A stretch of DNA of 64,000 nucleotides from Candidatus Woesearchaeota archaeon (lineage in GTDB: Archaea > Nanobdellota > Nanobdellia > Pacearchaeales > GW2011-AR1), in the NCBI GenBank assembly GCA_964573625.1, contig CAZNJU010000001.1:256661-320660 (forward strand), given 5' to 3'. Below, piece by piece: positions 22,986-57,345 of this stretch. Position numbers and translations under genes: made by a program. Position 1 is the first letter of the stretch; every line of letters begins with the position of its first letter. The notes beneath the pieces are model-generated. The model did not search any database, was not told the origin of the DNA, and worked only from the letters and a program-made list of their open reading frames with translations.

Positions 22986-24526
22986 TGTGTAAAATCAAGA
23001 ACTTTAAGTTCGCGAGTCTTGACGTTGAACAAAGGAACTTTACAGGGATCAGGCACATTTCCAACCTTTTCTTCGAACTCTGTTTGAGCTTGCCAGCAAC
23101 TTCCCGTTATAATAATGGTCCCATTATAATTTTCGATATCTAGTCTGTGTACCTCTCCTGTGCATAAAACATCAGGTACTTCAGAAATAACAAGAGGATC
23201 ATGTTGAGCATTAGGAACATATACAATACTGGGACTAACTCCGTGTGTTGGAGCAAGATGTCTACGCTTAAGCATGTGTTTTACAGCTCGAGCCGGGCAG
23301 CGATGTGCTTTAGCAGCGCGTAGTTCATCAATTTCATTAATAAATGCATGAATGCTTGCTCCGTGATACATGAGTACTTTGAATTCTTTATCGCCTTCAG
23401 TAAGTTTAATCATTGAAGGATTCGAAACAAGAAAAAGATTAGGGAAAGCATAGAGCGCCTCTCCGTAAAAAGAATCAATCATTGGTTGAGGTTCAGCAAC
23501 ACGAACGGAATCGTGTTGTCCAGGACACATAAACATGGTTATATGTGGAGGCACCTGTTTAATATATGAAGCAAGCTTCGCGTATTGTTCTTTCAAACTC
23601 TTAAGGTTGAGCAGTCTTTCTTGTCCAGGAAAAACACCCACTCCATCTACATTATCTCCTACAAAAAAAATGTAACGTATAGACTTGGCAAGTTCATTTC
23701 CGCTATTGAGCCAATCAAGGAAGCGTTGAAATTCTGTTCCCAAATGCTTTTGGCTACCAACGTGTACATCTGAAACAAAGGCGATAGAATAATCTTCATC
23801 GAATCTTACTTTTTCCTTAAACGAATCAGGAAAAACAATATCGTGTACAAAAACAATTTCTCTGTTTCCAGAACCCTTTACAAGAACCACATCATCTAAT
23901 TGTAATTCACTTGCTTTTGAAAAACAGTCTGCATTTTGTTTGATAAGGGCCTTAACGCTCCCTGTTAAATCCTCAAAAGTAATTATTATATTTTTGTTGG
24001 GAGTTGTTCTTTTATCTGTAACAATTCCAATAAAGGAAAATCGTTGCCTATCTCCCGCAATTTTATTTAAGGATACTAAATTTTGTAAATCCCCTCGTTG
24101 CATAAGAATGCGTTGTAATTGTTGATAACGAGATCTAAAGTGTCCTACAAAATCAGCAATTTCTATCTTTTTATGGTTCTTGGTGTCAGTATAATATATT
24201 TGAAAGGGTAAATTTTCCTTCTTATCTTGACTGATCGGTGCAACAGAAGTTGATTTTTGAATTTCAACAGTAATTCCCATTTTGATAAAAACCGTTTCAA
24301 CTTGTTGCTTCATTTCTCCAGGCAAGCTTTTAACAACGTTTAGAACATATTCTGCATTCTTTGTCAAACTAGATGAAGTAATCATCTTCTGTCCCGAGAC
24401 TTTTTCCAAATTGTTTAAGAGATTCTTCGCAATCTCTGCGTCTGAAAAAGAGGTAAGTAAATCAAACAGATCTTTCTCTAAGAATAATCCTCTCTGTCTA
24501 ATAAATGCAATCGTGTCTTGATTCAT
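22982..24526 (-). CDS. polB: DNA polymerase II (PolD) small subunit DP1 (calcineurin-like phosphoesterase)
   Basis: Mre11-like metallophosphatase motifs (DVHVGS, GDNVDGVG, GQHD) and an N-terminal OB domain. Its stop overlaps the start of DP2. Confidence 0.85.
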   Translation of the reverse strand: MNQDTIAFIRQRGLFLEKDLFDLLTSFSDAEIAKNLLNNLEKVSGQKMITSSSLTKNAEYVLNVVKSLPGEMKQQVETVFIKMGITVEIQKSTSVAPISQDKKENLPFQIYYTDTKNHKKIEIADFVGHFRSRYQQLQRILMQRGDLQNLVSLNKIAGDRQRFSFIGIVTDKRTTPNKNIIITFEDLTGSVKALIKQNADCFSKASELQLDDVVLVKGSGNREIVFVHDIVFPDSFKEKVRFDEDYSIAFVSDVHVGSQKHLGTEFQRFLDWLNSGNELAKSIRYIFFVGDNVDGVGVFPGQERLLNLKSLKEQYAKLASYIKQVPPHITMFMCPGQHDSVRVAEPQPMIDSFYGEALYAFPNLFLVSNPSMIKLTEGDKEFKVLMYHGASIHAFINEIDELRAAKAHRCPARAVKHMLKRRHLAPTHGVSPSIVYVPNAQHDPLVISEVPDVLCTGEVHRLDIENYNGTIIITGSCWQAQTEFEEKVGNVPDPCKVPLFNVKTRELKVLDFTQ

Positions 24527-25728
24527 AGGTCTAAAGAAGTCCTCAAAATCTCCTTTGATTTTGCCATAAGAGGGGTTGGAATCATGAGTTTGATTTCTCT
24601 TGTTCTACCCTGCCTTCCTTTACTTACTACTTGCGCATTAATTATTCCTAACATATCGAATTCTGCCAATATATCTGAAACGCGCCGCTGTGTTAATACT
24701 TCATTTCGTGTACGTTCACAAACCTCTTGATATTTATTATAAATATCTCCTGTGTATAGTCTGTTTTCTCCTGCTGATTCGGTAAGTTGAATAATTGAAA
24801 AGAGTACGAGTTGAAACTGCTTAGGTTCATTCTCAATAATATCCAACATTTTATCACGCTCTATTTTTTTATTAGCCTCATCTATATGTTTCAATCCTAC
24901 TACTGCGCTATTTTCCCTATCGGCAAGCTCTCCAGCAACTCGTAACAAGTCAAGCGCCCTACGAGCATCTCCATGTTCACGAGCAGCAAACGCAGCGCAT
25001 TTAGATATAACTCCTTCTTCAAGAACACCCTCTGTAAATGCCTGTAAAGCTCGTTCCTTCAGTATATCTTGTAACTGTAAAGCATTATAGGGTGGAAAAA
25101 CAAGCTCTTCTTCTCCTAATGAACTGCGAACCCTAGGATCTAGTTCATCCATAAAAGTAAGACTATTACTTATACCTACTATACTAATTTGAGCATTCTT
25201 TAGTTCGGAATTGAGACGTGTTAAGGTATAAAGAAAACTGTCTGATATTTTTTTAACAGCTTGATCTATTTCGTCAAGTACTATAAGAACAATCTGCTTT
25301 CTATTATCAATAAGTTCTACAAATTTATTATAAACACTATCTGTAGGAAGTCCTGTCGCGGGAACGCTTCCTCCTAAATTATGAATAAGTTCTGCTAAAA
25401 TACGATATTCCGTGTCTGCTACTTTCTTTAACTTACAATTTACGTAAACTACTTTTAAAGATTGGCCACCGCTGTCTTTGACCCTCTTAGTGAGTTCGTT
25501 ACTTACGTACTGTACAGATAAAGTCTTACCTGTGCCTGTTTTACCATAAACGAATAAATTACTTACCCGTTCTGTTCTAAGTGCTGGAGCAAGAATAGAA
25601 GCTACTAATTCAATTTGATCATCTCTATGTGGAATCGTTTCAGGGGTGTAATTTATTTGTAAAACACTCTTATTTTTGAACAAACTCTTGCCCGCAACAG
25701 AATCAAATATTTTTCCAAGTTCTGGCAT
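24523..25728 (-). CDS. cdc6: Orc1/Cdc6 replication initiator
   Basis: AAA+ Walker A YGKTGTGKT, Walker B VLDEID and a C-terminal winged-helix domain. It is the first gene of the cdc6-polD operon, directly beside the AT-rich region. Confidence 0.85.
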   Translation of the reverse strand: MPELGKIFDSVAGKSLFKNKSVLQINYTPETIPHRDDQIELVASILAPALRTERVSNLFVYGKTGTGKTLSVQYVSNELTKRVKDSGGQSLKVVYVNCKLKKVADTEYRILAELIHNLGGSVPATGLPTDSVYNKFVELIDNRKQIVLIVLDEIDQAVKKISDSFLYTLTRLNSELKNAQISIVGISNSLTFMDELDPRVRSSLGEEELVFPPYNALQLQDILKERALQAFTEGVLEEGVISKCAAFAAREHGDARRALDLLRVAGELADRENSAVVGLKHIDEANKKIERDKMLDIIENEPKQFQLVLFSIIQLTESAGENRLYTGDIYNKYQEVCERTRNEVLTQRRVSDILAEFDMLGIINAQVVSKGRQGRTREIKLMIPTPLMAKSKEILRTSLDL

Positions 25729-26088
25729 GATACACCTCTTTCTGAAAGAGTATCCATTAGATTATAAACTTATTGTCACTGAAACCTCTATTTCCTATGG
25801 AAATAGCTCTAATTTCATACTTTATAAAAAAGGAGACTGACACCAACGTTTCCACTGGAAAATAATAAAAATAAAAATAAAAATATATCTATTATATACT
25901 ATATTATATATATTATAATATATAAATATTTAAAAGTAAAAAATAGAAAAAAAGAAAAGTAAATTTGTTTTTAAATCTTAGTATATATTCCATACGAAAT
26001 CATGGGGTGAGGGTGTTGTATATGAATAATCGTATAGCTATTAACAATTATACAAAACTTTAAATACCTCCTCCGCTGTTTTTCTAGA
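25729..26088. other. putative chromosomal replication origin (oriC): ORB-like dyads + AT-rich DUE + G-string ORB
   Basis: The dyads TTTCCtatGGAAA (25791-25805) and TTTCCACTGGAAA (25849-25862) match the Pyrococcus/Sulfolobus mini-ORB core TTCCAGTGGAAA. They are followed by about 120 bp of almost pure A/T (25860-25985). After that comes TTCCAtacGAAAtcatGGGGTGAGGGTG (25989-26016), a degenerate dyad plus a G-string as in full ORB elements. The region is adjacent to cdc6. Confidence 0.6.
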
Positions 26089-26349
26089 ATGGCATTAGAA
26101 AAGAGACCACTTAAGCATGTTCTTGGTAAACTCGTAGTTACTAAAGAAGGTAAGCGTTTAGGTCTTGTAAAAGACGTTACATTTGAAACAAGAACAGGAG
26201 AACTGCTTCAATTACTCTTAAAAGATGCAACGATATATACTAAAAACCTGAATTTAGAGGTTTCTCAGGATAAAGACACAGTAGTTCCTTATAATTCTAT
26301 TATTGCAATAGGCGATTTCGTGGTTGTTTCTGAAGAAGATCTTACATAA
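26089..26349 (+). CDS. PRC-barrel domain protein
   Basis: Reads LGKLVVTKEGKRLGLVKDVTFETRTGELLQLLL and is 86 aa long. Confidence 0.5.
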   Translation: MALEKRPLKHVLGKLVVTKEGKRLGLVKDVTFETRTGELLQLLLKDATIYTKNLNLEVSQDKDTVVPYNSIIAIGDFVVVSEEDLT

Positions 26350-30955: not shown

Positions 30956-31258
30956 ATGCCTTCAGTATCGTCAAAAACAAAGGACCGCATCTCAGAACAA
31001 ATATTAGCTTACTTATTCTCCCAATCGCCCGAGCCTCGCTACACAGTTCATATTGCATCATCAATCGCCCGAGACGAAGAGTTCACAAAAGCACTTCTTC
31101 TTGACTTAGAAAAGCGCAAGCTAGTAGTAAAAGTAACAAAGAGTTCTCAAGGCTTCGACTACCTTCGTCGTCAACGCTGGCGTCTCTCAGATGCAGCCTT
31201 CTCAGCATATAATCAGATGTCTAAGCAGAGATCTACGACTTTCATCGATGAAGAGTAA
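30956..31258 (+). CDS. hypothetical small protein, possible winged-helix DNA binding
   Basis: 100 aa with a basic C-terminal half and a predicted helix-turn-helix. Confidence 0.3.
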   Translation: MPSVSSKTKDRISEQILAYLFSQSPEPRYTVHIASSIARDEEFTKALLLDLEKRKLVVKVTKSSQGFDYLRRQRWRLSDAAFSAYNQMSKQRSTTFIDEE

Positions 31259-31873: not shown

Positions 31874-32503
31874 ATGGATCCTATAAAAGAAGCATTTCTA
31901 AAAGCAAAGCAAGATATACAGTTTTTGAATGAAAAAATAGACAAATTAACCCAAGAACTAGAAGAATTAAAGCGAACTCTAAATACATCATATCAGTCAG
32001 TTCAGCCAACCAACCAACAGATGATTCCAACACATCAACACCCTCTAGAACACTTAAAAAGCTCAAAAACAAGCTTCTCCACTGGAAATGAAGGGGTTCC
32101 AACCAACCAACCAACAATCCAACCAACCAACCAACGCACTGGAAATGAAGGGGTTCCCGATAAGATCAGCCATCTTGAACGAGTTTCAGAGATCCTAGGA
32201 TCTCTCGATGCATTAAAGAAAGAAGTTCGCATTAAATTTAAGAAGCTTACCCAGCAAGAAATGGCTATATACGGAGCAATTTACCAGCTTCAAGAGCAAG
32301 GAAATATCGTCGATTACACCTTATTAGCCTCAAAACTCAAATTATCAGAGATTTCAATACGTGACTATATTCGAAAAATAGCTACCAAGGGCATCCCTCT
32401 CAACAAAGAAAAAGTCGATAATAAAAAAATTAGGCTCACAATTCCAGAGGATTTGCGCCGAGTAGCAACCCTAGAAACGATTTTAGCTCTCCGCGAGCTA
32501 TAA
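31874..32503 (+). CDS. coiled-coil + C-terminal winged-HTH protein with internal 60-nt direct repeat
   Basis: N-terminal heptads (LNEKIDKLTQELEELKRTL). The tandem repeat actggaaatgaaggggttcc(aa/cg)...ccaaccaaccaac encodes ...TGNEGVPTNQPTIQPTNQRTGNEGVP. The C-terminal wHTH reads QEMAIYGAIYQLQEQGNIVDYTLLASKLKLSEISIRDYIRKI. Confidence 0.45.
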   Translation: MDPIKEAFLKAKQDIQFLNEKIDKLTQELEELKRTLNTSYQSVQPTNQQMIPTHQHPLEHLKSSKTSFSTGNEGVPTNQPTIQPTNQRTGNEGVPDKISHLERVSEILGSLDALKKEVRIKFKKLTQQEMAIYGAIYQLQEQGNIVDYTLLASKLKLSEISIRDYIRKIATKGIPLNKEKVDNKKIRLTIPEDLRRVATLETILALREL

Positions 32504-32575
32504 ATATCACTCCTTTCGGTATACCGAATAAAATAGGGGCTTAGCTATACCTTTTCCTTTCAAACTGTTCTATCA

Positions 32576-32603
32576 AAATTCGTTTTAACGCGAACTTTTG
32601 ACA
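32576..32603. repeat. AAGTTCG-box repeat copy (inverted orientation)
   Basis: aaaattcgttttaacgcgaacttttgac; the reverse complement contains AAAGTTCGCGTTAAAACG. Confidence 0.4.
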
Positions 32604-32914
32604 CTCACTTTTTGATCACTCAGAATCATCGCTTATCAGCGTGGATGATCCCTCACTTTTTGCACAAAAAAGGGCCAACAGTACCCTCTTTTTGAATCAA
32701 AATCCAGTAAATATCACTCACTTTTCACTTCCTCCGCTATAGCTTGCTCATAATCCTCACTTTTCTCTTCTTTTTCCCCCTTTTTGAGGCGTTTTTCCTT
32801 GCCCTTAACTCTCACTTTTGCGTATTTTAGGAGTTTAATACGAACTTCTTCACTAATAAACACTCTCTTTTTCCCATTTCCCTCAGTTATCTCCTCAATC
32901 AAGCCCTCACTTTT
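32604..32914. repeat. six dispersed copies of CTCACTTTT
   Basis: Copies at 32604, 32652, 32717, 32756, 32811 and 32906. They span the intergenic region and the 3' end of the minus-strand wHTH gene. Confidence 0.45.
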
Positions 32915-33403
32915 CTGCTTTATAGCATTTATTTGTCCTCTAACCGTACTTCTCTCTTTTCCAAGTAGCCTGGCTAGATCCTCATAGCTCAACTTCAGGC
33001 CCTCTCCGGCATTCAATAGGGTAAAAATCAATAGTCTCTCATTAGCTGATAGTTGATTCAAAATAGCATATAAATTACCTGTTTGAACAGGTGTTTGAAC
33101 ATCTTCTTCAACATCTTCAACAGCTGTTTGTTTGTCTAAAACACCCGTTTTTTTAAACAGCTGTTTGTTTTTTGCCTCAAAATCAACTAAGCTTAAACCT
33201 TCACGGAGCGATTCAATCTCTTCACGAACCGTCGCTAAATCCAATTTTAGGCTGTTTATCTCATCAAACAGCTGTTTGTCATGAGTATCCAGGTGTTTAA
33301 TCCAGCTTCCAACTTTCTCAAGATCCTTTTTAACTCCAGAAAAACCATGTTTGGTTGCTTCCTCTAATTTCTTATCCTTGTTTCCGAAAATCCATCCAAA
33401 CAT
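32714..33403 (-). CDS. coiled-coil + winged-HTH protein (paralogous architecture to 31874..32503)
   Basis: The start is trimmed to MFGWIFGNKDKK, because the track's extension reads through the iteron array. It has the heptad segment LKLDLATVREEIESLREGL and the wHTH ERLLIFTLLNAGEGLKLSYEDLARLLGKERSTVRGQINAI. Confidence 0.45.
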   Translation of the reverse strand: MFGWIFGNKDKKLEEATKHGFSGVKKDLEKVGSWIKHLDTHDKQLFDEINSLKLDLATVREEIESLREGLSLVDFEAKNKQLFKKTGVLDKQTAVEDVEEDVQTPVQTGNLYAILNQLSANERLLIFTLLNAGEGLKLSYEDLARLLGKERSTVRGQINAIKQKSEGLIEEITEGNGKKRVFISEEVRIKLLKYAKVRVKGKEKRLKKGEKEEKSEDYEQAIAEEVKSE

Positions 33404-33720
33404 AAACACCTTAAAACCCCTGTATTTATAAACTTTACGCCTTTTTACACATTCCAACACATCCTCCAACACACCAAAAAAACACCCCTGTTTAAACAGG
33501 CAAACAGCCCATAAACACCCCTTTTTCAAAAGCAAACAGGCAAAAAACACCTTTAAACAGGGTCAAACACCCCTAGAATAATCGACGATAAAACAGCCCA
33601 ACAGCTGTTTAAACACTCTTGCCTCAATTATCAGTGAGGCGCGAAGCGCCGAACGCGCCCGACAACACAAAAAACACCTGTTTTTAGGGCAATTCACAAG
33701 ATATTTAAACTTCAGTACCC
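33404..33720. repeat. iteron-like array: interleaved AAACAG(G/C) and AAACACC(CCT) short direct repeats
   Basis: There are at least seven AAACAGG/AAACAGC units and at least six AAACACC units in about 300 bp. One copy forms the palindrome AAACAGCTGTTTAAAC. The region is non-coding and lies directly upstream of the wHTH gene. Confidence 0.55.
33622..33661. repeat. 40-bp GC-rich hairpin repeat, copy 1
   Basis: cctcaattatcagtGAGGCGCGAAGCGCCGAACGCGCCCg. The GGCGC-GAA-GCGCC stem-loop is embedded in AT-rich DNA. Confidence 0.55.
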
Positions 33721-33730
33721 TTAACAAAAC

Positions 33731-33892
33731 ATGGTATTAGTTTCAGTAGCCATTTCAGCCGTATTGGCCATCATTTTAGGCATTTTAATCCTCGTATTCC
33801 CAAGGCTATTACGTTGGGCCGTAGGATTTTATCTGCTCATTTTCGGAGTCCTGCAACTTCTAGCACAGGCGTACCCTTCTTTCTCCCCATAA
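33731..33892 (+). CDS. small membrane protein (53 aa), DUF3096-like; not in ORF track (<60 aa)
   Basis: MVLVSVAISAVLAIILGILILVFPRLLRWAVGFYLLIFGVLQLLAQAYPSFSP is an ATG..TAA frame of 54 codons. It has two TM helices with the ILGILILVFP...GxYLLIxGVLQLL pattern. Confidence 0.4.
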   Translation: MVLVSVAISAVLAIILGILILVFPRLLRWAVGFYLLIFGVLQLLAQAYPSFSP

Positions 33893-33952
33893 AAATTCCC
33901 CAACACAGGCCCCTTTAGAAAGGATTAAAAACCAATCAAAACACCCAAAACT

Positions 33953-34339
33953 ATGGAAACAGCAAAAAGAATTAATGAAAAACCATCTCCTTTAGTAATC
34001 GCTGCCGCAGCAGTTGGCGCACTAGGCCTCGTGACCTACGGATTCATCACCCAAAAGCCTGCCCCAGAAAGACCTTCTTTGACAGGCAAGGTTACCTATG
34101 AAAGTCCCTTAAGTTTCAGCGGAGGCTTCGCCTATAGTTGGAGAATTGAGACGCCCGAAGGAGATTCACGTCTTATCGGAACATCAGCAGACGTATATTC
34201 TCCCAAGACCAACCAACCAAAACCATTTGGCCTGGGCGATGAAGTAAAAATCGACCTCAGAGGACTCGATCAAACGTACGAGTACGGGCCAAGAATAACG
34301 GATCTAAAATATGCTTCTATAGTTTCAAAAAACAAGTAA
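33953..34339 (+). CDS. hypothetical exported/membrane-anchored protein
   Basis: An N-terminal hydrophobic segment (LVIAAAAVGALGLVTYGFI) and then a beta-rich domain. It is flanked by the two GC-rich hairpin repeats. Confidence 0.4.
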   Translation: METAKRINEKPSPLVIAAAAVGALGLVTYGFITQKPAPERPSLTGKVTYESPLSFSGGFAYSWRIETPEGDSRLIGTSADVYSPKTNQPKPFGLGDEVKIDLRGLDQTYEYGPRITDLKYASIVSKNK

Positions 34340-34347
34340 TAAAACTT

Positions 34348-34396
34348 CTCAGCTTCGCTTAAATCTTTCAGCACCCATTAAAGTTCGTGTTAAAGC
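34348..34396. repeat. AAGTTCG-box long repeat, copy A
   Basis: ctcagcttcgcttaaatctttcagcacccattaAAGTTCGTGTTAAAgc is about 80% identical to 35417-35466. Confidence 0.5.
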
Positions 34397-34418
34397 CCGC
34401 GAACCCTAAGGAAATATG

Positions 34419-34458
34419 CCTCAATTAAGAGTGAGGCGCGAAGCGCCGAACGCGCCCG
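34419..34458. repeat. 40-bp GC-rich hairpin repeat, copy 2
   Basis: cctcaattaagagtGAGGCGCGAAGCGCCGAACGCGCCCg matches copy 1 at 37 of 40 positions. Confidence 0.55.
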
Positions 34459-34502
34459 GCAACGAGTAGAAAAGGTTAAAAACTATAAATCGATCAAAAA
34501 TC

Positions 34503-34886
34503 ATGCACTCACAAACTAAAACAGGCACAGTAACCCTAGAAGGCAAGACCTTCGAAGTAGAGTTGAATAGGCATCATATCGGTAGAACCTATGGAGAGTG
34601 TGAAAAAGATTGTCCAGCAGGATGGCATATGCCTACCTATCAGCTTTTGCAAGAAATAAGAAATTCAGCAGATAGAGACAAATTTAATTTACTTGAAACC
34701 TCAGAATATGTTCAACAGCCAGATGTTCTCTCAAAAGAAAGAGGGTTAGTTGCAGGGTTTGTTGCGAGTTCGGACGGGGCTATTCTTAGTTGCGCCGCGG
34801 ATCCTAAGACCGCCGATTCGGTACTTGGGGTGCGCTATGTGCGTAAACTTTCTGGAGACCCCATTCCTCGGCACGAGAATTGGTAA
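34503..34886 (+). CDS. hypothetical protein
   Basis: 127 aa with noticeably higher GC than the flanking genes. Confidence 0.35.
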   Translation: MHSQTKTGTVTLEGKTFEVELNRHHIGRTYGECEKDCPAGWHMPTYQLLQEIRNSADRDKFNLLETSEYVQQPDVLSKERGLVAGFVASSDGAILSCAADPKTADSVLGVRYVRKLSGDPIPRHENW

Positions 34887-34950
34887 AATAAGAGTTCGTA
34901 TAAGGTATATTAAGCGAAGTTTTAGAGGGTTTTTAGACAATAATGCGAAC

Positions 34951-35352
34951 TTATTTCTTCAGAATAGGCGGGATTGGTAAGTTTTTCAAGGCTTTTTCTC
35001 CGAATAGGCCTATAAGAAGTCCCCTAAGTCCCCTCTTTGAATCTCGATAATTTGAGTATGCTATTTGATAAGCAATATTTAGTTCCGTTCCTAGTTGAGT
35101 AAACTCCTGTAGTCTCTTAAGCATTTGCTTAGTGCCTCCATAGGTCAGGATGTGGTGGAGAAACTCTTCATGAAATCTCTTAATTTGAAAGTATTCCAAG
35201 TGTAATTTTTTAATTTCTTCAGCTTTTTCTTTCCAGAATTTTAGCCATTTTTCCACATCAAAATCCACCTCCTGATTTCTAAGGCTTAGAAACGGATAAT
35301 ACCTTCCTCGAAAAATTACAGATCCATCACCTAACTCTTCATATTCCTTCAT
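34951..35352 (-). CDS. hypothetical protein
   Basis: 133 aa, basic and helical. Confidence 0.35.
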   Translation of the reverse strand: MKEYEELGDGSVIFRGRYYPFLSLRNQEVDFDVEKWLKFWKEKAEEIKKLHLEYFQIKRFHEEFLHHILTYGGTKQMLKRLQEFTQLGTELNIAYQIAYSNYRDSKRGLRGLLIGLFGEKALKNLPIPPILKK

Positions 35353-35416
35353 CCGTTTATGGGGCGTACATGATTTTTAATCATTTCTATAGTCTGCAAT
35401 ACATGCTAAAACTTTC

Positions 35417-35466
35417 TGCTCTCGCTTAAACCTTTCAGCATACAGTATAAGTTCGTTTTAATAAGA
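35417..35466. repeat. AAGTTCG-box long repeat, copy B (plus short copy at 35517-35540)
   Basis: ctgctctcgcttaaacctttcagcatacagtaTAAGTTCGTTTTAATaag. A second short box, aataAAGTTCGTTTTAATtaaagc, lies 50 bp downstream. Confidence 0.5.
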
Positions 35467-35542
35467 AAAACGGTATGCTAGAACTTGTAAGCGTTAATGA
35501 TAATTTTAAGCAGATAATAAAGTTCGTTTTAATTAAAGCAGG

Positions 35543-35935
35543 TTAACTGTTTCTAAAATATAGGAACGTTCGCTCGACCAAACGACCTTCATCGAATCGA
35601 ACGACTCCATTAAGTTGAGCCATACTAAACTCTGGAGTAATTTCGTACTTTGCAAGATATGTCCAAACAGGGTTCTTTCCCCAACCTCTCCCTTTACGAG
35701 AACTGGTCGGTTCACCTATTTCGTTTCTAATTATGCTTCGATCTCGTGCCTCTAGAGAAATTCCTGTTTCTTTAAAATAATAGGCTCCCGATTCAGAGGC
35801 ATCTACACTTGGAAGTCCAATAGCTGCCCGATCACGTAATTGTTTGAGCTTCTCTATAATCTCAGTTGAAGGCATACCCGAGACTAATGTTAATCCTTCC
35901 AATTCAATAATTCCAGGTGTTCGTACCAATGACAT
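35543..35935 (-). CDS. hypothetical protein
   Basis: 130 aa with no motif. Confidence 0.35.
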   Translation of the reverse strand: MSLVRTPGIIELEGLTLVSGMPSTEIIEKLKQLRDRAAIGLPSVDASESGAYYFKETGISLEARDRSIIRNEIGEPTSSRKGRGWGKNPVWTYLAKYEITPEFSMAQLNGVVRFDEGRLVERTFLYFRNS

Positions 35936-44391: not shown

Positions 44392-45198
44392 ATGGAGCAT
44401 GTTGAACTATTCAAAACCGAGCTAAAACTACGCGGCTTCTCTCCATTAACTATACGTAACTATTCTTTTTTTGTCGAAAAATTTCTTAAATTCACCAATA
44501 AAGACGCTTCACAAGTCGACGAGAACGATGCACGCGCATATCTAGCTTCTCTTTTCGAATCAAAATCTAAGAACACCATTATGCTCGCGGCAGCATCTCT
44601 CAAATTCTTTTATGCTGAAGTCTTAAAGAAGCCAACAGTAGCGATAAAAGCACCCAAAAAAGACAAACAGCTTCCAGAAGTATTGACAAAAGAGGAAGTT
44701 CGCAAGATGATTGATCTCTCTGAGACTCTCAAGTCACGCCTTATAATTTCATTGCTCTATTCATCAGGTCTCCGGGTTTCCGAACTCGTTCATCTCAAAC
44801 CAGAAAATCTTAACATCAATGAAAGTATGGGTTGGGTTCGTAGAGGAAAAGGCGCAAAAGACAGACGTTTCATTCTATCGGAAACACTTTCAAAAGATCT
44901 TGATGCGTACGTCAAAAGAAATCCGGGGCCATACGTCTTCTCAAAGAAAGAAGATCCCCTCACAACTCGAAATATTCAGAAAATCGTGAAAAAAATAAAA
45001 GAAAAAGCAGGAATAAATAAGAAAGTAACTCCTCACACACTAAGGCATAGCTTCGCAACCCATCTTCTCGAAGCAGGTACGGATATTCGACTTATTCAAA
45101 CGCTTCTTGGCCACGCGTCTCTAAATACTACTCAATTGTACACACATGTTTCAGCTGATCAGTTGAGAAAAGTTCAGAACCCTTTGGACGGATTGTAA
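44392..45198 (+). CDS. xerA: tyrosine recombinase, XerA/XerCD-like
   Basis: An N-terminal SAM-like domain and a C-terminal catalytic region with R...HxxR...Y (TPHTLRHSFATHLLEAGTDIRLIQTLLGHASLNTTQLYTHV). Confidence 0.7.
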   Translation: MEHVELFKTELKLRGFSPLTIRNYSFFVEKFLKFTNKDASQVDENDARAYLASLFESKSKNTIMLAAASLKFFYAEVLKKPTVAIKAPKKDKQLPEVLTKEEVRKMIDLSETLKSRLIISLLYSSGLRVSELVHLKPENLNINESMGWVRRGKGAKDRRFILSETLSKDLDAYVKRNPGPYVFSKKEDPLTTRNIQKIVKKIKEKAGINKKVTPHTLRHSFATHLLEAGTDIRLIQTLLGHASLNTTQLYTHVSADQLRKVQNPLDGL

Positions 45199-55912: not shown

Positions 55913-56109
55913 AAGGAAAGAAAGTCAGTTCCCTATTAATAAGTGAGTATAACGAAGACAGCATCCGTGTTTCGCCTCTTGACGGAGACTACCGCACAAG
56001 ACGTCATCAGCTTGACTTCTGTGTTCGGAATGGGAACAGGTATTTCCTGATGACTGTGACCGTCTTCAATCCATCATCATACCAACCATTTAAAAAGGTT
56101 TCGTTACAC

Positions 56110-57175: not shown

Positions 57176-57218
57176 CTCTGCAAAGCTTTAAAACTCCCTA
57201 GTAGATAATTCCCGTAAG

Positions 57219-57305
57219 CGCGGTTAGTTTAATGGCAAAACATCTGGTTTCCAAAATCGCTCTCTAAGCACTTGAAAACACCAGAGGTCACGGGTTCGAT
57301 TCCCG
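57219..57305 (+). tRNA. tRNA-Gly (anticodon UCC) with ~26-nt intron at canonical 37/38 position
   Basis: Exon 1 is gcgcggtta-gttt-aatggca-aaac-a-tctgg-ttTCCa, the intron is aaatcgctctctaagcacttgaaaac and exon 2 is a-ccaga-ggtc-acggg-ttcgatt-cccgt-accgcgc-a. Removing the intron restores the anticodon stem tctgg/ccaga. Confidence 0.65.
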
Positions 57306-57345
57306 TACCGCGCAGTTTACTCTTCGAGCATAATTCACAGATTAT

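What the first reader, a model, noticed from the sequence alone, without database searches (positions are those of the whole stretch)
32576..35540. AAGTTCG-box repeat family in five intergenic sites
A conserved box (A/T)AAGTTCG(C/T)(G/T)TTAA appears at 32576-32603 and 34939-34957 in inverted orientation, and at 34381-34396, 35449-35466 and 35517-35540 in direct orientation. In two cases it is part of a longer repeat of about 48 bp (34348-34396 and 35417-35466, about 80% identical) that begins with cgcttaaa(t/c)ctttcagca. Every copy is intergenic within the accessory island, which suggests a common operator or promoter element, or small-RNA genes.
Basis: seen in the sequence. Interest (0 to 1): 0.55.

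Follow-up and report, generated by a model that had tools for sequence, protein, structure and literature searches.

The report
Shared promoter box of Pacearchaeota array
The AAGTTCG box is a real DNA motif shared by a whole lineage of tiny DPANN archaea; it usually sits just upstream of the TATA box of a fast-changing array of small genes beside two conserved regulator genes, so it is most likely a regulator-binding site, not a small-RNA gene.

Summary
WAAGTTCGYKTTAA occurs 4 times exactly in the window against 0.01 expected, and all looser copies cluster at 31.9-35.5 kb.

The motif is lineage-wide. In 80 related Pacearchaeota-type genomes the strict box occurs 49 times against 0.35 expected. 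There it is part of a conserved promoter module: two quasi-palindromic GCTnAAAnCTTTnAGC units at fixed offsets, the box, an optional GC-rich hairpin (GGCGCGAAGCGCC), BRE/TATA, then about 23 nt to a leaderless ATG.

These modules precede small, almost entirely unrelated ORFan genes in a one-directional array. The array diverges from a conserved pair of MarR-like winged-helix genes a few kb from oriC. A box lies upstream of 89/490 array-strand ORFs and of 0/238 housekeeping ORFs.

Copies inside the two regulator genes are kept by biased synonymous codons. Boxes also flank the DNA-unwinding element of oriC in the four other genomes whose origin was captured.

Best reading: a protein-binding cis-element, probably bound by the neighbouring regulators. 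This is inferred, not shown. The small-RNA and attC-like readings are not supported.

In this window only the 34380 copy is in canonical promoter position. The "accessory island" label is partly wrong.

The parts
34380..34393 (+). AAGTTCG box, exact (AAAGTTCGTGTTAA). This is the only window copy inside a complete promoter module in front of a same-strand gene (ATG at 34503).
35448..35461 (+). AAGTTCG box, exact (TAAGTTCGTTTTAA), preceded by two units. There is no same-strand gene within 135 nt, so it is an orphan or relic module, or one shared with the divergent gene 34951-35352(-).
35519..35532 (+). AAGTTCG box, exact (AAAGTTCGTTTTAA), 71 nt downstream of the previous copy. It abuts the 3' end of ORF 35543-35935(-).
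32585..32598 (-). AAGTTCG box, exact (AAAGTTCGCGTTAA), between the convergent MarR-like genes.
32575..32588 (+). Degenerate box (AAAATTCGTTTTAA, 1 mismatch). It overlaps the previous copy and forms an imperfect palindrome with it.
34889..34902 (+). Degenerate box (AAGAGTTCGTATAA), 3 nt after the stop of 34503-34886. It is the inverted partner of the 34940 copy.
34940..34953 (-). Degenerate box (TAAGTTCGCATTAT, 2 mismatches) overlapping the stop codon of 34951-35352(-).
   Evidence: I8
32222..32235 (+). In-ORF box (GAAGTTCGCATTAA, encoding E-V-R-I-K) in ORF 31874-32503. It is followed by AAATTTAAG, then 24 nt, then invariant Met130. It is kept by codon bias in orthologs.
32835..32848 (-). In-ORF box (GAAGTTCGTATTAA, encoding E-V-R-I-K) in wHTH ORF 32714-33403. 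The codon bias is seen in orthologs that have the VR dipeptide.
34341..34373 (+). Two upstream units of the module: AAAACTTCTCAGC and GCTTAAATCTTTCAGCA.
35405..35440 (+). Two upstream units of the second module: GCTAAAACTTTCTGC and GCTTAAACCTTTCAGCA.
34417..34463 (+). GC-rich hairpin element 'D3' (GCCTCAATTAAGAGTGAGGCGCGAAGCGCCGAACGCGCCCGGCAAC), between the box and BRE/TATA.
33620..33666 (+). Second D3 copy (94% identical), upstream of the DUF3096 gene. Its position is orthologously conserved.
34467..34483 (+). BRE/TATA (TAGAAAAGGTTAAAAAC) about 20 nt before ATG 34503. Sister copies lie at 33916-33932(+) and 35371-35392(-).
   Evidence: D5, I5
31874..32503 (+). Conserved gene for a coiled-coil plus MarR-like winged-helix protein; a candidate box-binding factor.
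32714..33403 (-). Conserved gene for a coiled-coil plus MarR/ArsR-like winged-helix protein; a candidate box-binding factor. The array diverges from its 5' side.

Best explanation
The box (consensus WAA-GTTCG-NN-TT(T)AA) is a protein-binding cis-regulatory DNA element. It belongs to a conserved promoter module of Pacearchaeota-type DPANN archaea. The module reads: two quasi-palindromic units (GCTnAAAnCTTTnAGC) with cores 41 and 22 nt upstream of the box; the box; sometimes a 45-nt GC-rich hairpin element; BRE/TATA; then about 23 nt to the ATG of a leaderless gene. The box therefore lies at about -50 to -38 from the start, directly upstream of BRE. That is the position from which archaeal activators recruit TBP/TFB, or from which repressors occlude them. 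Modules of this kind head the genes of a one-directional, hypervariable array of small ORFan genes. The array diverges from a conserved convergent pair of MarR-like winged-helix genes located a few kb from oriC. I infer that one or both of these proteins bind the box. On this reading they co-regulate the array, regulate themselves through boxes inside and between their own genes, and in many genomes also touch oriC. What is shown: the motif, its enrichment, its position, strand bias and spacing, its restriction to this locus, the synonymous-codon constraint, and the fold of the neighbouring proteins. What is inferred: that a protein binds it, which protein, and whether it activates or represses.
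For: Window: 4 exact copies against 0.01 expected.
80 related loci: strict box 49 observed against 0.35 expected; relaxed box 495 against 41 +/- 5.
Intergenic bias: 62% of relaxed hits are intergenic, although only 24% of the sequence is.
Strand bias upstream of the wHTH gene: 192 array-sense boxes against 40 antisense. 63 of 68 loci have at least one array-sense box (per-kb profile).
A box within 135 nt upstream on the same strand: 89/490 array-strand ORFs, 3/214 opposite-strand ORFs, 0/238 housekeeping-side ORFs; p = 4e-17. An unbiased 7-mer screen recovers AAGTTCG at 42 against 2.
Spacing: GTTCG to ATG is 46-51 nt in cassettes, and the TATA hexamer to ATG is 29 +/- 1 nt. Explicit promoters are listed. 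Unit cores lie at -22 and -41 +/- 1 nt from the box.
General promoters of this genome (tRNAs, 5S rRNA, integrase, the gene at 26089) have the same TATA-to-start distance but no box.
Modules are more conserved than the genes they head. Between L014 and L050, modules are 82-94% identical, core genes 77-81%, and the ORFs in between are unrelated.
Synonymous constraint: Arg119 in ORF31874 orthologs is encoded by CGY in 37/43, against 73/384 for other Arg codons (p = 1.5e-18); Val is GTT in 32/33. The same trend holds in the wHTH gene.
Both neighbouring genes encode MarR-like winged-helix domains.
Against: There are no transcription-start or binding data of any kind.
In this window only one of seven intergenic copies (34380) is in the canonical promoter position. 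Two pairs lie between convergent genes. The 35448/35519 copies have no same-strand gene downstream.
Boxes also occur in contexts without a promoter: the convergent intergenic region in 50/80 loci, and oriC.
The motif is not palindromic, whereas MarR dimers usually bind palindromes.
Fixed spacing within modules could partly reflect common descent of duplicated modules rather than functional constraint.
Only about 18% of array-strand ORFs have a box. ORF calling was naive, and some of these ORFs are operon-internal with Shine-Dalgarno sites.
Confidence: 0.6

Rival explanations
1. The box and its module are recombination sites of an integron-like cassette system. Genes would be captured or exchanged at the repeat, and the promoter-like position would be secondary.
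For: The arrays are one-directional and made of small, mostly unknown genes. 98 array proteins fall into 91 clusters. Only about 8 of 99 have Pfam hits, among them MazE/VapB antitoxins and one integrase.
Modules are retained while the ORFs between them are replaced.
A whole module-plus-ORFs indel between L004 and L005 is bounded by unit sequences.
Against: Homology between genomes runs through the box on both sides, from the units to TATA, so the box is not a crossover point.
There is no attC-type R''/L''-L'/R' inverted-repeat structure and no GTTRRRY core.
No integrase gene is consistently adjacent. In the window the only tyrosine recombinase is 9 kb away and has no box.
Boxes occur inside conserved ORFs under codon constraint and in oriC, which a cassette site does not explain.
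Module-mediated homologous recombination can explain the turnover without a dedicated site.
Confidence: 0.12
2. The box is primarily a binding site of an origin-associated or chromosome-organising protein (centromere-like or replication-control), and its presence in promoters is secondary.
For: All four other loci that reach oriC have 1-3 boxes flanking the AT-rich unwinding element upstream of cdc6 (L076, L007, L036, L062).
The whole locus lies 3-7 kb from oriC.
The neighbouring ORF 31874-32503 carries ORB-like elements under synonymous constraint.
Boxes also occur in the promoterless convergent intergenic region.
Against: The window's own oriC (25729-26088) has no box.
Most copies (192 in 68 loci) are in promoter modules with gene-directed orientation and semi-fixed distance to TATA. 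That pattern points to transcription rather than segregation.
Only four origins could be examined.
Confidence: 0.15
3. The boxes mark small-RNA genes or RNA-level elements, such as a 5' leader or a 3' UTR/terminator.
For: Some copies can pair with a nearby inverted partner. The 34383-34404 hairpin gives z = -2.2 for the region, and the 32575/32598 palindrome gives z = -2.4 to -2.9.
Many copies lie just 3' of a gene.
The adjacent D3 hairpin shows covariation.
Against: There is no Rfam match even at E <= 10.
The hairpin partners of the box are not conserved between loci.
Folding of the 35444-35545 region is not different from shuffles (z = -0.8).
The T-run of the box is not conserved (GTTCGGATTAA, GTTCGCATTAA and others), so it is not an oligo-T terminator.
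Lying 3' of the preceding gene is a trivial consequence of tight tandem arrays.
The sequence downstream of the box is a BRE/TATA and a protein-coding gene.
Confidence: 0.07

Closest known systems
Upstream activator or operator sites of archaeal transcription factors: Ptr2 UAS in Methanocaldococcus, the TFB-RF1 site in Pyrococcus, and the MarR-family regulators BldR, ST1710 and AbfR in Sulfolobus (recalled from the literature; BldR 3f3x and AbfR2 6cmv are among the fold matches)
   Same: A short specific DNA motif lies immediately upstream of BRE/TATA of a defined set of promoters. The regulator candidates are winged-helix (MarR-like) proteins encoded nearby, with sites in or at their own genes.
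   Different: The motif is asymmetric and sits in a rigid multi-part module (two units, the box, and sometimes a GC hairpin). The regulon is a physically contiguous array of unrelated ORFan genes. The candidate regulators have long N-terminal coiled coils. Copies also occur in oriC and inside coding sequence.
Integron cassette arrays and attC sites, including the archaeal integrons of Ghaly et al. 2022 (PMC9668308)
   Same: Both are one-directional arrays of small, mostly unknown, rapidly exchanged genes separated by a conserved repeat. [quoted passage not shown]
   Different: The repeat here is a promoter upstream of each gene, not a 3' recombination site. It has no attC-type imperfect palindrome or GTTRRRY core, and no intI is adjacent. 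The repeat sequence is conserved across species. The homology breakpoints do not fall in the box.
Origin recognition boxes (ORB and mini-ORB) of archaeal oriC
   Same: Both are short repeated protein-binding motifs that flank the AT-rich unwinding element next to cdc6. In 4 of the 5 origins examined, boxes are found there too.
   Different: The sequence is unrelated to ORB (TTCCAnnGGAAA followed by a G-string). Genuine ORBs are present alongside the boxes. Most boxes are in promoters outside oriC.
GCGAAGC mini-hairpin and REP-like GC-rich palindromes (for the accompanying D3 element; PMC13037366)
   Same: D3 contains GGCGC-GAA-GCGCC, whose core is the extraordinarily stable GCGAAGC hairpin. 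It is a GC-rich intergenic palindrome in an AT-rich genome.
   Different: D3 is strictly oriented with the downstream gene (80 against 0). It lies between the box and TATA, is confined to this locus, and has conserved single-stranded flanks (AGCCaCAATAA ... GCGCCCGaCA). No RAYT or Y1 transposase was seen.

Membership tests
Archaeal core promoter (BRE + TATA) | TATA box centred about 26-30 nt upstream of the transcription start, with a purine-rich BRE directly upstream | tested here: not met
   The box ends 36-46 nt before the ATG of leaderless genes, and a separate BRE/TATA lies between the box and the ATG. Housekeeping promoters (tRNA, 5S rRNA and others) have the TATA but no box.
Archaeal transcription-factor operator / upstream activating site | Specific motif at a constrained position and orientation relative to BRE/TATA in a subset of promoters | tested here: met
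   The box-to-TATA distance is 17-23 nt, or 12 nt in the in-ORF case. Orientation: 192 sense against 40 antisense. Occupancy: 89/490 array ORFs against 0/238 housekeeping ORFs.
Archaeal transcription-factor operator / upstream activating site | Demonstrated binding by a regulator and an effect on transcription | not testable with these tools
   Only indirect evidence exists: MarR-like winged-helix genes are adjacent, and boxes in and between these genes are under codon constraint.
Integron attC site | Imperfect inverted repeat R''-L''...L'-R' with a GTTRRRY core at the cassette junction | tested here: not met
   GTTCG-NN-TTAA does not fit GTTRRRY, and no conserved inverted partner is present. 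Inter-genome homology passes through the box.
Integron attC site | An adjacent intI-type tyrosine recombinase, or at least arrays of attC (CALIN) | tested here: not met
   No integrase lies next to the array in the window (nearest at 44392-45198, no box). Only 1 of 99 box-headed ORFs is an integrase.
Small non-coding RNA gene | A conserved transcribed sequence or structure downstream of a promoter, with covariation or a family match | tested here: not met
   No Rfam match at E <= 10. Folds around the box are not conserved, with z from -0.8 to -2.9. The sequence downstream of the box is a BRE/TATA plus an ORF.
MITE / mobile repeat | Terminal inverted repeats, target-site duplication, dispersed copies | tested here: not met
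   Copies are confined to one locus. No TIR or TSD was seen. No matches in the phage, plasmid or IMG/VR collections.
Origin recognition box (ORB) | Sequence similarity to TTCCAnnGGAAA(+GGGG) and location in oriC | tested here: not met
   The sequence is unrelated. The location criterion is met in 4 of 5 origins, but true ORBs are present alongside the boxes.

The most novel reading that the evidence does not exclude
Pacearchaeota-type archaea carry, next to oriC, an undescribed, integrase-independent cassette platform. Hypervariable ORFan genes are plugged between conserved 70-150-bp promoter modules (units, AAGTTCG box, optional GC hairpin, TATA). The modules would serve two purposes at once: they give one regulatory input from two origin-proximal coiled-coil MarR-like proteins that also bind oriC, and they act as homologous-recombination anchors through which cassettes are swapped between populations.
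Probability: 0.3. Interest if true: 0.8.

Novelty: new variant of a known kind. Interest (0 to 1): 0.6.

Why it matters
DPANN archaea are uncultured, and almost nothing is known about their gene regulation. This motif and its module give a concrete, testable regulon. They define a cis-element, name two candidate regulators conserved in more than 1000 metagenomic relatives, and identify a target set of small genes that turns over almost completely between species. If the modules also act as recombination anchors, the locus would be a new route by which episymbiotic archaea acquire and express novel small proteins. The presence of the same box in oriC, together with ORB-like sequences inside one regulator gene, hints at coupling between replication control and expression of this array.

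Tried and rejected
- Rfam scans at gathering and at E <= 10 found nothing at or near the boxes.
- Pfam, PHROG, NCBIfam and PADLOC scans of window ORFs and of 99 box-headed ORFs were almost all negative, with no defence systems.
- A PDB sequence search with the three wHTH proteins gave no significant hit. Only fold comparison gave MarR-like matches.
- The IMG/VR scan for the D3 core gave 51 hits, all unrelated GC hairpins in phages, with no Pacearchaeota-type context.
- The metagenome scan with CTTTCAGCAN{5,9}AAGTTCG was a poor choice of pattern. 120 rows came back, nearly all chance matches; L185 is clearly a real locus (wHTH gene set present) and L233 probably is.
- blastn of the module against the phage and plasmid collections found no match.
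- The helix GCCTCA/TGAGGC and the hairpin GCGC-N5-GCGC in D3 have no covariation support. My first test of the main D3 hairpin used wrong columns and was redone.
- I tried to link box variants (the NN dinucleotide) to regulator sequence. The dinucleotide is simply unconstrained, so there was nothing to correlate.
- The two wHTH proteins are not detectable paralogues by BLASTP.
- Literature searches on Pacearchaeota promoters and on cassette arrays in DPANN found no prior description.
Full report
**1. The observation**

The window is an archaeal chromosome segment of about 39% GC. It carries the PolD large and small subunit genes, orc1/cdc6 (24523-25728, minus strand) and an Lhr-type helicase gene. 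An oriC-like region lies at 25729-26088, with an AT-rich tract and ORB-like TTCCACTGGAAA.

The pattern WAAGTTCGYKTTAA has four exact matches: 32585(-), 34380(+), 35448(+) and 35519(+). Only 0.01 are expected. With up to two mismatches there are 13 matches, and nine of them fall in 31967-35532.

Additional degenerate copies lie at 32575(+) and 34889(+). Three more lie inside ORFs, at 31967, 32222 and 32835. The two longer repeats are real and about 82% identical over 70 nt.

**2. Context in the window**

Promoters of the local genes are easy to recognise. RAAAGGATTAAAAAYC lies about 20-25 nt before the ATG at 33953, 34503 and 35352(-) (repeats D5 and I5). tRNA, 5S rRNA, integrase and other genes show the same TATA-to-start distance. 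The genes are therefore leaderless, and the box is not the core promoter.

The 34380 copy lies in the following string:
- units at 34341-34373
- the box
- a 47-nt GC-rich repeat (D3, 34417-34463, with a second copy at 33620-33666)
- BRE/TATA at 34467-34483
- the ATG at 34503

The 35448 copy has the same two units but neither D3 nor a same-strand gene downstream. The 32575/32585 and 34889/34940 copies are inverted pairs between convergent genes.

**3. The "island" is partly core**

The wHTH ORF 32714-33403 has more than 2000 homologues at 60-75% identity, all in Pacearchaeota, Nanoarchaeota or "Woesearchaeota" MAGs. I fetched 80 genomic loci around it.

tblastn shows a conserved block:
- Lhr helicase
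- small wHTH 30956-31258 (75/80 loci)
- ORF 31874-32503 (79/80)
- wHTH 32714-33403 (80/80)
- often DUF3096 33731-33892 (28/80)

The ORFs from 33953 onwards have almost no counterparts in the other loci.

**4. The box is lineage-wide and locus-specific**

- In the 80 loci (838 kb) the strict box occurs 49 times against 0.35 in dinucleotide shuffles. A relaxed form ([AG]TTCG[CTG][GTA]TT?AA) occurs 495 times against 41 +/- 5.
- 62% of hits are intergenic, against 24% of the sequence.
- Hits pile up 2-4 kb upstream of the wHTH gene, on the strand opposite to it, and around the two regulator genes. They are nearly absent from the housekeeping side.
- In the upstream flanks there are 192 array-sense boxes against 40 antisense, and 63 of 68 loci have at least one.
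- A box lies within 135 nt upstream, on the same strand, of 89/490 array-strand ORFs, 3/214 opposite-strand ORFs and 0/238 housekeeping ORFs (p = 4e-17).
- An unbiased 7-mer comparison of upstream regions recovers AAGTTCG (42 against 2), the unit core TTCAGCA (21 against 0) and the D3 words (58 against 0).

**5. Anatomy of the module**

The listing of box-headed genes and the spacing counts give the following order:
- two units
- about 8 nt
- WAA-GTTCG-NN-TT(T)AA
- 1-8 nt
- cgAAAga (BRE)
- TTTAAAWA (TATA)
- about 22-24 nt
- ATG

GTTCG to ATG is 46-51 nt. The TATA hexamer start to ATG is 29 +/- 1 nt. Unit cores sit at -22 and -41 +/- 1 nt from the box. The two bases after GTTCG are unconstrained, which fits a bipartite protein-contact pattern.

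In a "long" variant, D3 is inserted between the box and BRE/TATA. This gives the second distance peak at 105-125 nt. D3 occurs 80 times in the flanks, always in array sense.

The D3 hairpin NN-GA-GGCGC-GAA-GCGCC-GA-N'N' shows compensatory changes at the two outer pairs. There are 29 double-change cells against 7.9 +/- 2.4 in shuffles, and 0/500 shuffles reach that number. Its core is the GCGAAGC mini-hairpin known for extreme stability (PMC13037366). Whether D3 acts as DNA or as RNA is open.

**6. What the modules head**

Locus maps show one-directional arrays of small ORFs (median about 100 aa), nearly each preceded by a box and/or D3.

Of 99 such proteins, only about eight have Pfam hits: MazE three times, VapB, one integrase, DUF378, DUF3096 and others. 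None has a meaningful defence-system hit. 98 array proteins fall into 91 clusters. About 20% have a hydrophobic segment.

Between related genomes the modules are better conserved than the core genes, while the ORFs between them are unrelated. In L014 against L050, modules are 82-94% identical and core genes 77-81%. L005 has a module-plus-two-ORF insertion relative to L004, bounded by unit sequences.

Homology runs through the box on both sides. The box is therefore not a crossover point, although the modules as a whole may serve as recombination anchors.

**7. Copies outside promoters**

(a) The copy at 32222 inside ORF 31874-32503 (K-K-E-V-R-I-K-F-K) is present in the orthologs. It is held by codon choice: Arg is encoded by CGY in 37/43, against 73/384 for other Arg codons in the same ORFs (p = 1.5e-18), and Val is GTT in 32/33. 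It is followed by AAATTTAAG and, 24 nt later, the invariant Met130, which opens the 80-aa winged-helix domain. This may be an internal promoter.

(b) The wHTH gene shows the same bias where it has the VR dipeptide: 22/30 against 68/469.

(c) 50 of 80 loci have at least one box between the two convergent regulator genes.

(d) All four other loci that extend to oriC have one to three boxes beside the AT-rich unwinding element upstream of cdc6. The window's own oriC has none.

**8. Candidate binding proteins**

AlphaFold models were built for 32714-33403 (mean pLDDT 69) and 31874-32503 (mean pLDDT 75). Both show a long N-terminal coiled coil and a confident C-terminal winged helix. The best PDB matches for that domain are MarR-family regulators: MepR, AbfR2, BldR and MarR, at E about 1e-4 to 1e-3. 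The two proteins are not detectably paralogous.

Their constant adjacency to the array, together with the boxes in and between their genes, makes them the leading candidates. This is inference only.

**9. Rivals**

- Small-RNA or RNA-element reading: no Rfam match; folds are weak and not conserved; the T-run is not conserved.
- attC-like site: the array features match, but the defining features fail. There is no R/L inverted-repeat structure, no GTTRRRY core, no adjacent integrase, and the breakpoints are not at the box. The archaeal integrons already described use bacterial-type attC sites (PMC9668308).
- Origin or segregation site: supported by the oriC copies, but it is a minority context.
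- Mobile element or virus: no matches in IMG/VR, phage or plasmid collections.

**10. Verdict**

The box is real and non-random. It is the most conspicuous part of a conserved promoter module specific to one hypervariable gene array, to the two regulator genes beside it, and often to oriC, in Pacearchaeota-type archaea. It most likely works as a transcription-factor binding site immediately upstream of BRE (confidence about 0.6). The identity of the factor and the sign of the regulation are unknown.

In this particular window only the 34380 copy is canonical. The others are relic or non-promoter copies.

I found no prior description. I rate it a new variant of a known kind: an operator or upstream element embedded in an unusual cassette-like architecture.

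Noticed in passing
window 32080-32100 and 32137-32157 (inside ORF 31874-32503): CACTGGAAATGAAGGGGTTCC occurs twice and resembles the chromosomal ORB elements. It encodes the conserved peptide TGNEGVP. Across 44 ortholog copies the second Gly codon is always GGG and the first always GGA, far from background Gly usage, so the DNA sequence itself appears to be selected.
   Followed up: partly
L076 9885-9970; L007 12250; L036; L062 (oriC regions upstream of cdc6): AAGTTCG boxes flank the AT-rich unwinding element of oriC in all four other genomes whose origin was captured. They all point towards cdc6. The window's own oriC (25729-26088) has none.
   Followed up: partly
window 33620-33666 and 34417-34463; 80 copies in L002-L081: This is the GC-rich element AGCCaCAATAAnnnGTGAGGCGCGAAGCGCCGAACGCGCCCGaCA. 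It is always in gene sense, just upstream of BRE/TATA. It contains the hyperstable GCGAAGC mini-hairpin, extended by tandem G.A pairs and two covarying outer pairs. Its function is unknown (insulator, terminator for antisense transcripts, or protein site).
   Followed up: partly
window 32222-32262 (ORF 31874-32503): An in-ORF box, then AAATTTAAG, then 24 nt, then invariant Met130. This may be an internal promoter producing an 80-aa winged-helix-only isoform of the regulator.
   Followed up: partly
window ~32617-32656 (minus-strand sense), between the convergent regulator genes: A conserved hairpin of the form RTGAGG-stem-loop-stem-CTGA(G/T)G is found in most related loci, with different but complementary stems (for example GAAAAATTG/CAATTTTTC against GGATCATC/GATGATTC). 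It is flanked by repeats of AAAGTGAG. The flanking GA-rich boxes are reminiscent of a K-turn. It is not in Rfam.
   Followed up: partly
window 32515-32528: The perfect palindrome TTCGGTATACCGAA lies 12 nt after the stop of ORF 31874-32503. It is conserved in related loci as TTATTCGGTnnnCCGAA.
   Followed up: no
window 33116-33281 (in the wHTH ORF) and 33476-33612 (upstream of it): AAACAGCTGTTT occurs three times inside the wHTH gene, where it encodes the repeated peptide KQLF. TGTTTAAACA/CAGCTGTTTAAACA palindromes fill its upstream region, also in other genomes. This is a likely autoregulatory operator set, distinct from the AAGTTCG box.
   Followed up: no
window 32600-32930 (minus-strand sense): AAAAGTGAG(A/G/T)G is repeated about 7 times across the 3' end of the wHTH gene and its downstream region. 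One copy encodes the invariant KVRV, whose Arg codon is AGA in 44/49 orthologs. It shares the frame AAAGT-N5-TTAA with the box.
   Followed up: partly
L004 4640-4660 vs L005 3811-4672: An indel of about 860 nt comprising a degenerate module plus two ORFs, bounded on both sides by unit-like sequences. It is an example of gain or loss of a whole cassette at the modules.
   Followed up: partly
upstream regions of array ORFs in L002-L081: The Shine-Dalgarno-like AAGGAGG(T) is strongly enriched upstream of array-strand ORFs (49/490) against housekeeping-side ORFs (1/240). This suggests that many array genes are second genes of small operons.
   Followed up: no
window 57218-57314: An intron-containing tRNA detected by Rfam (60.6 bits) but missed by ARAGORN. 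A 5S rRNA lies at 55953-56067(-).
   Followed up: no
Logan assemblies of SRR16481183 (L001, L253): In the independent assembly of the same organism, the contig ends 260 nt upstream of the wHTH gene, and the array lies on a separate 1.8-kb contig. This is consistent with assembly breaks at the repeated modules or with strain heterogeneity in the array.
   Followed up: no
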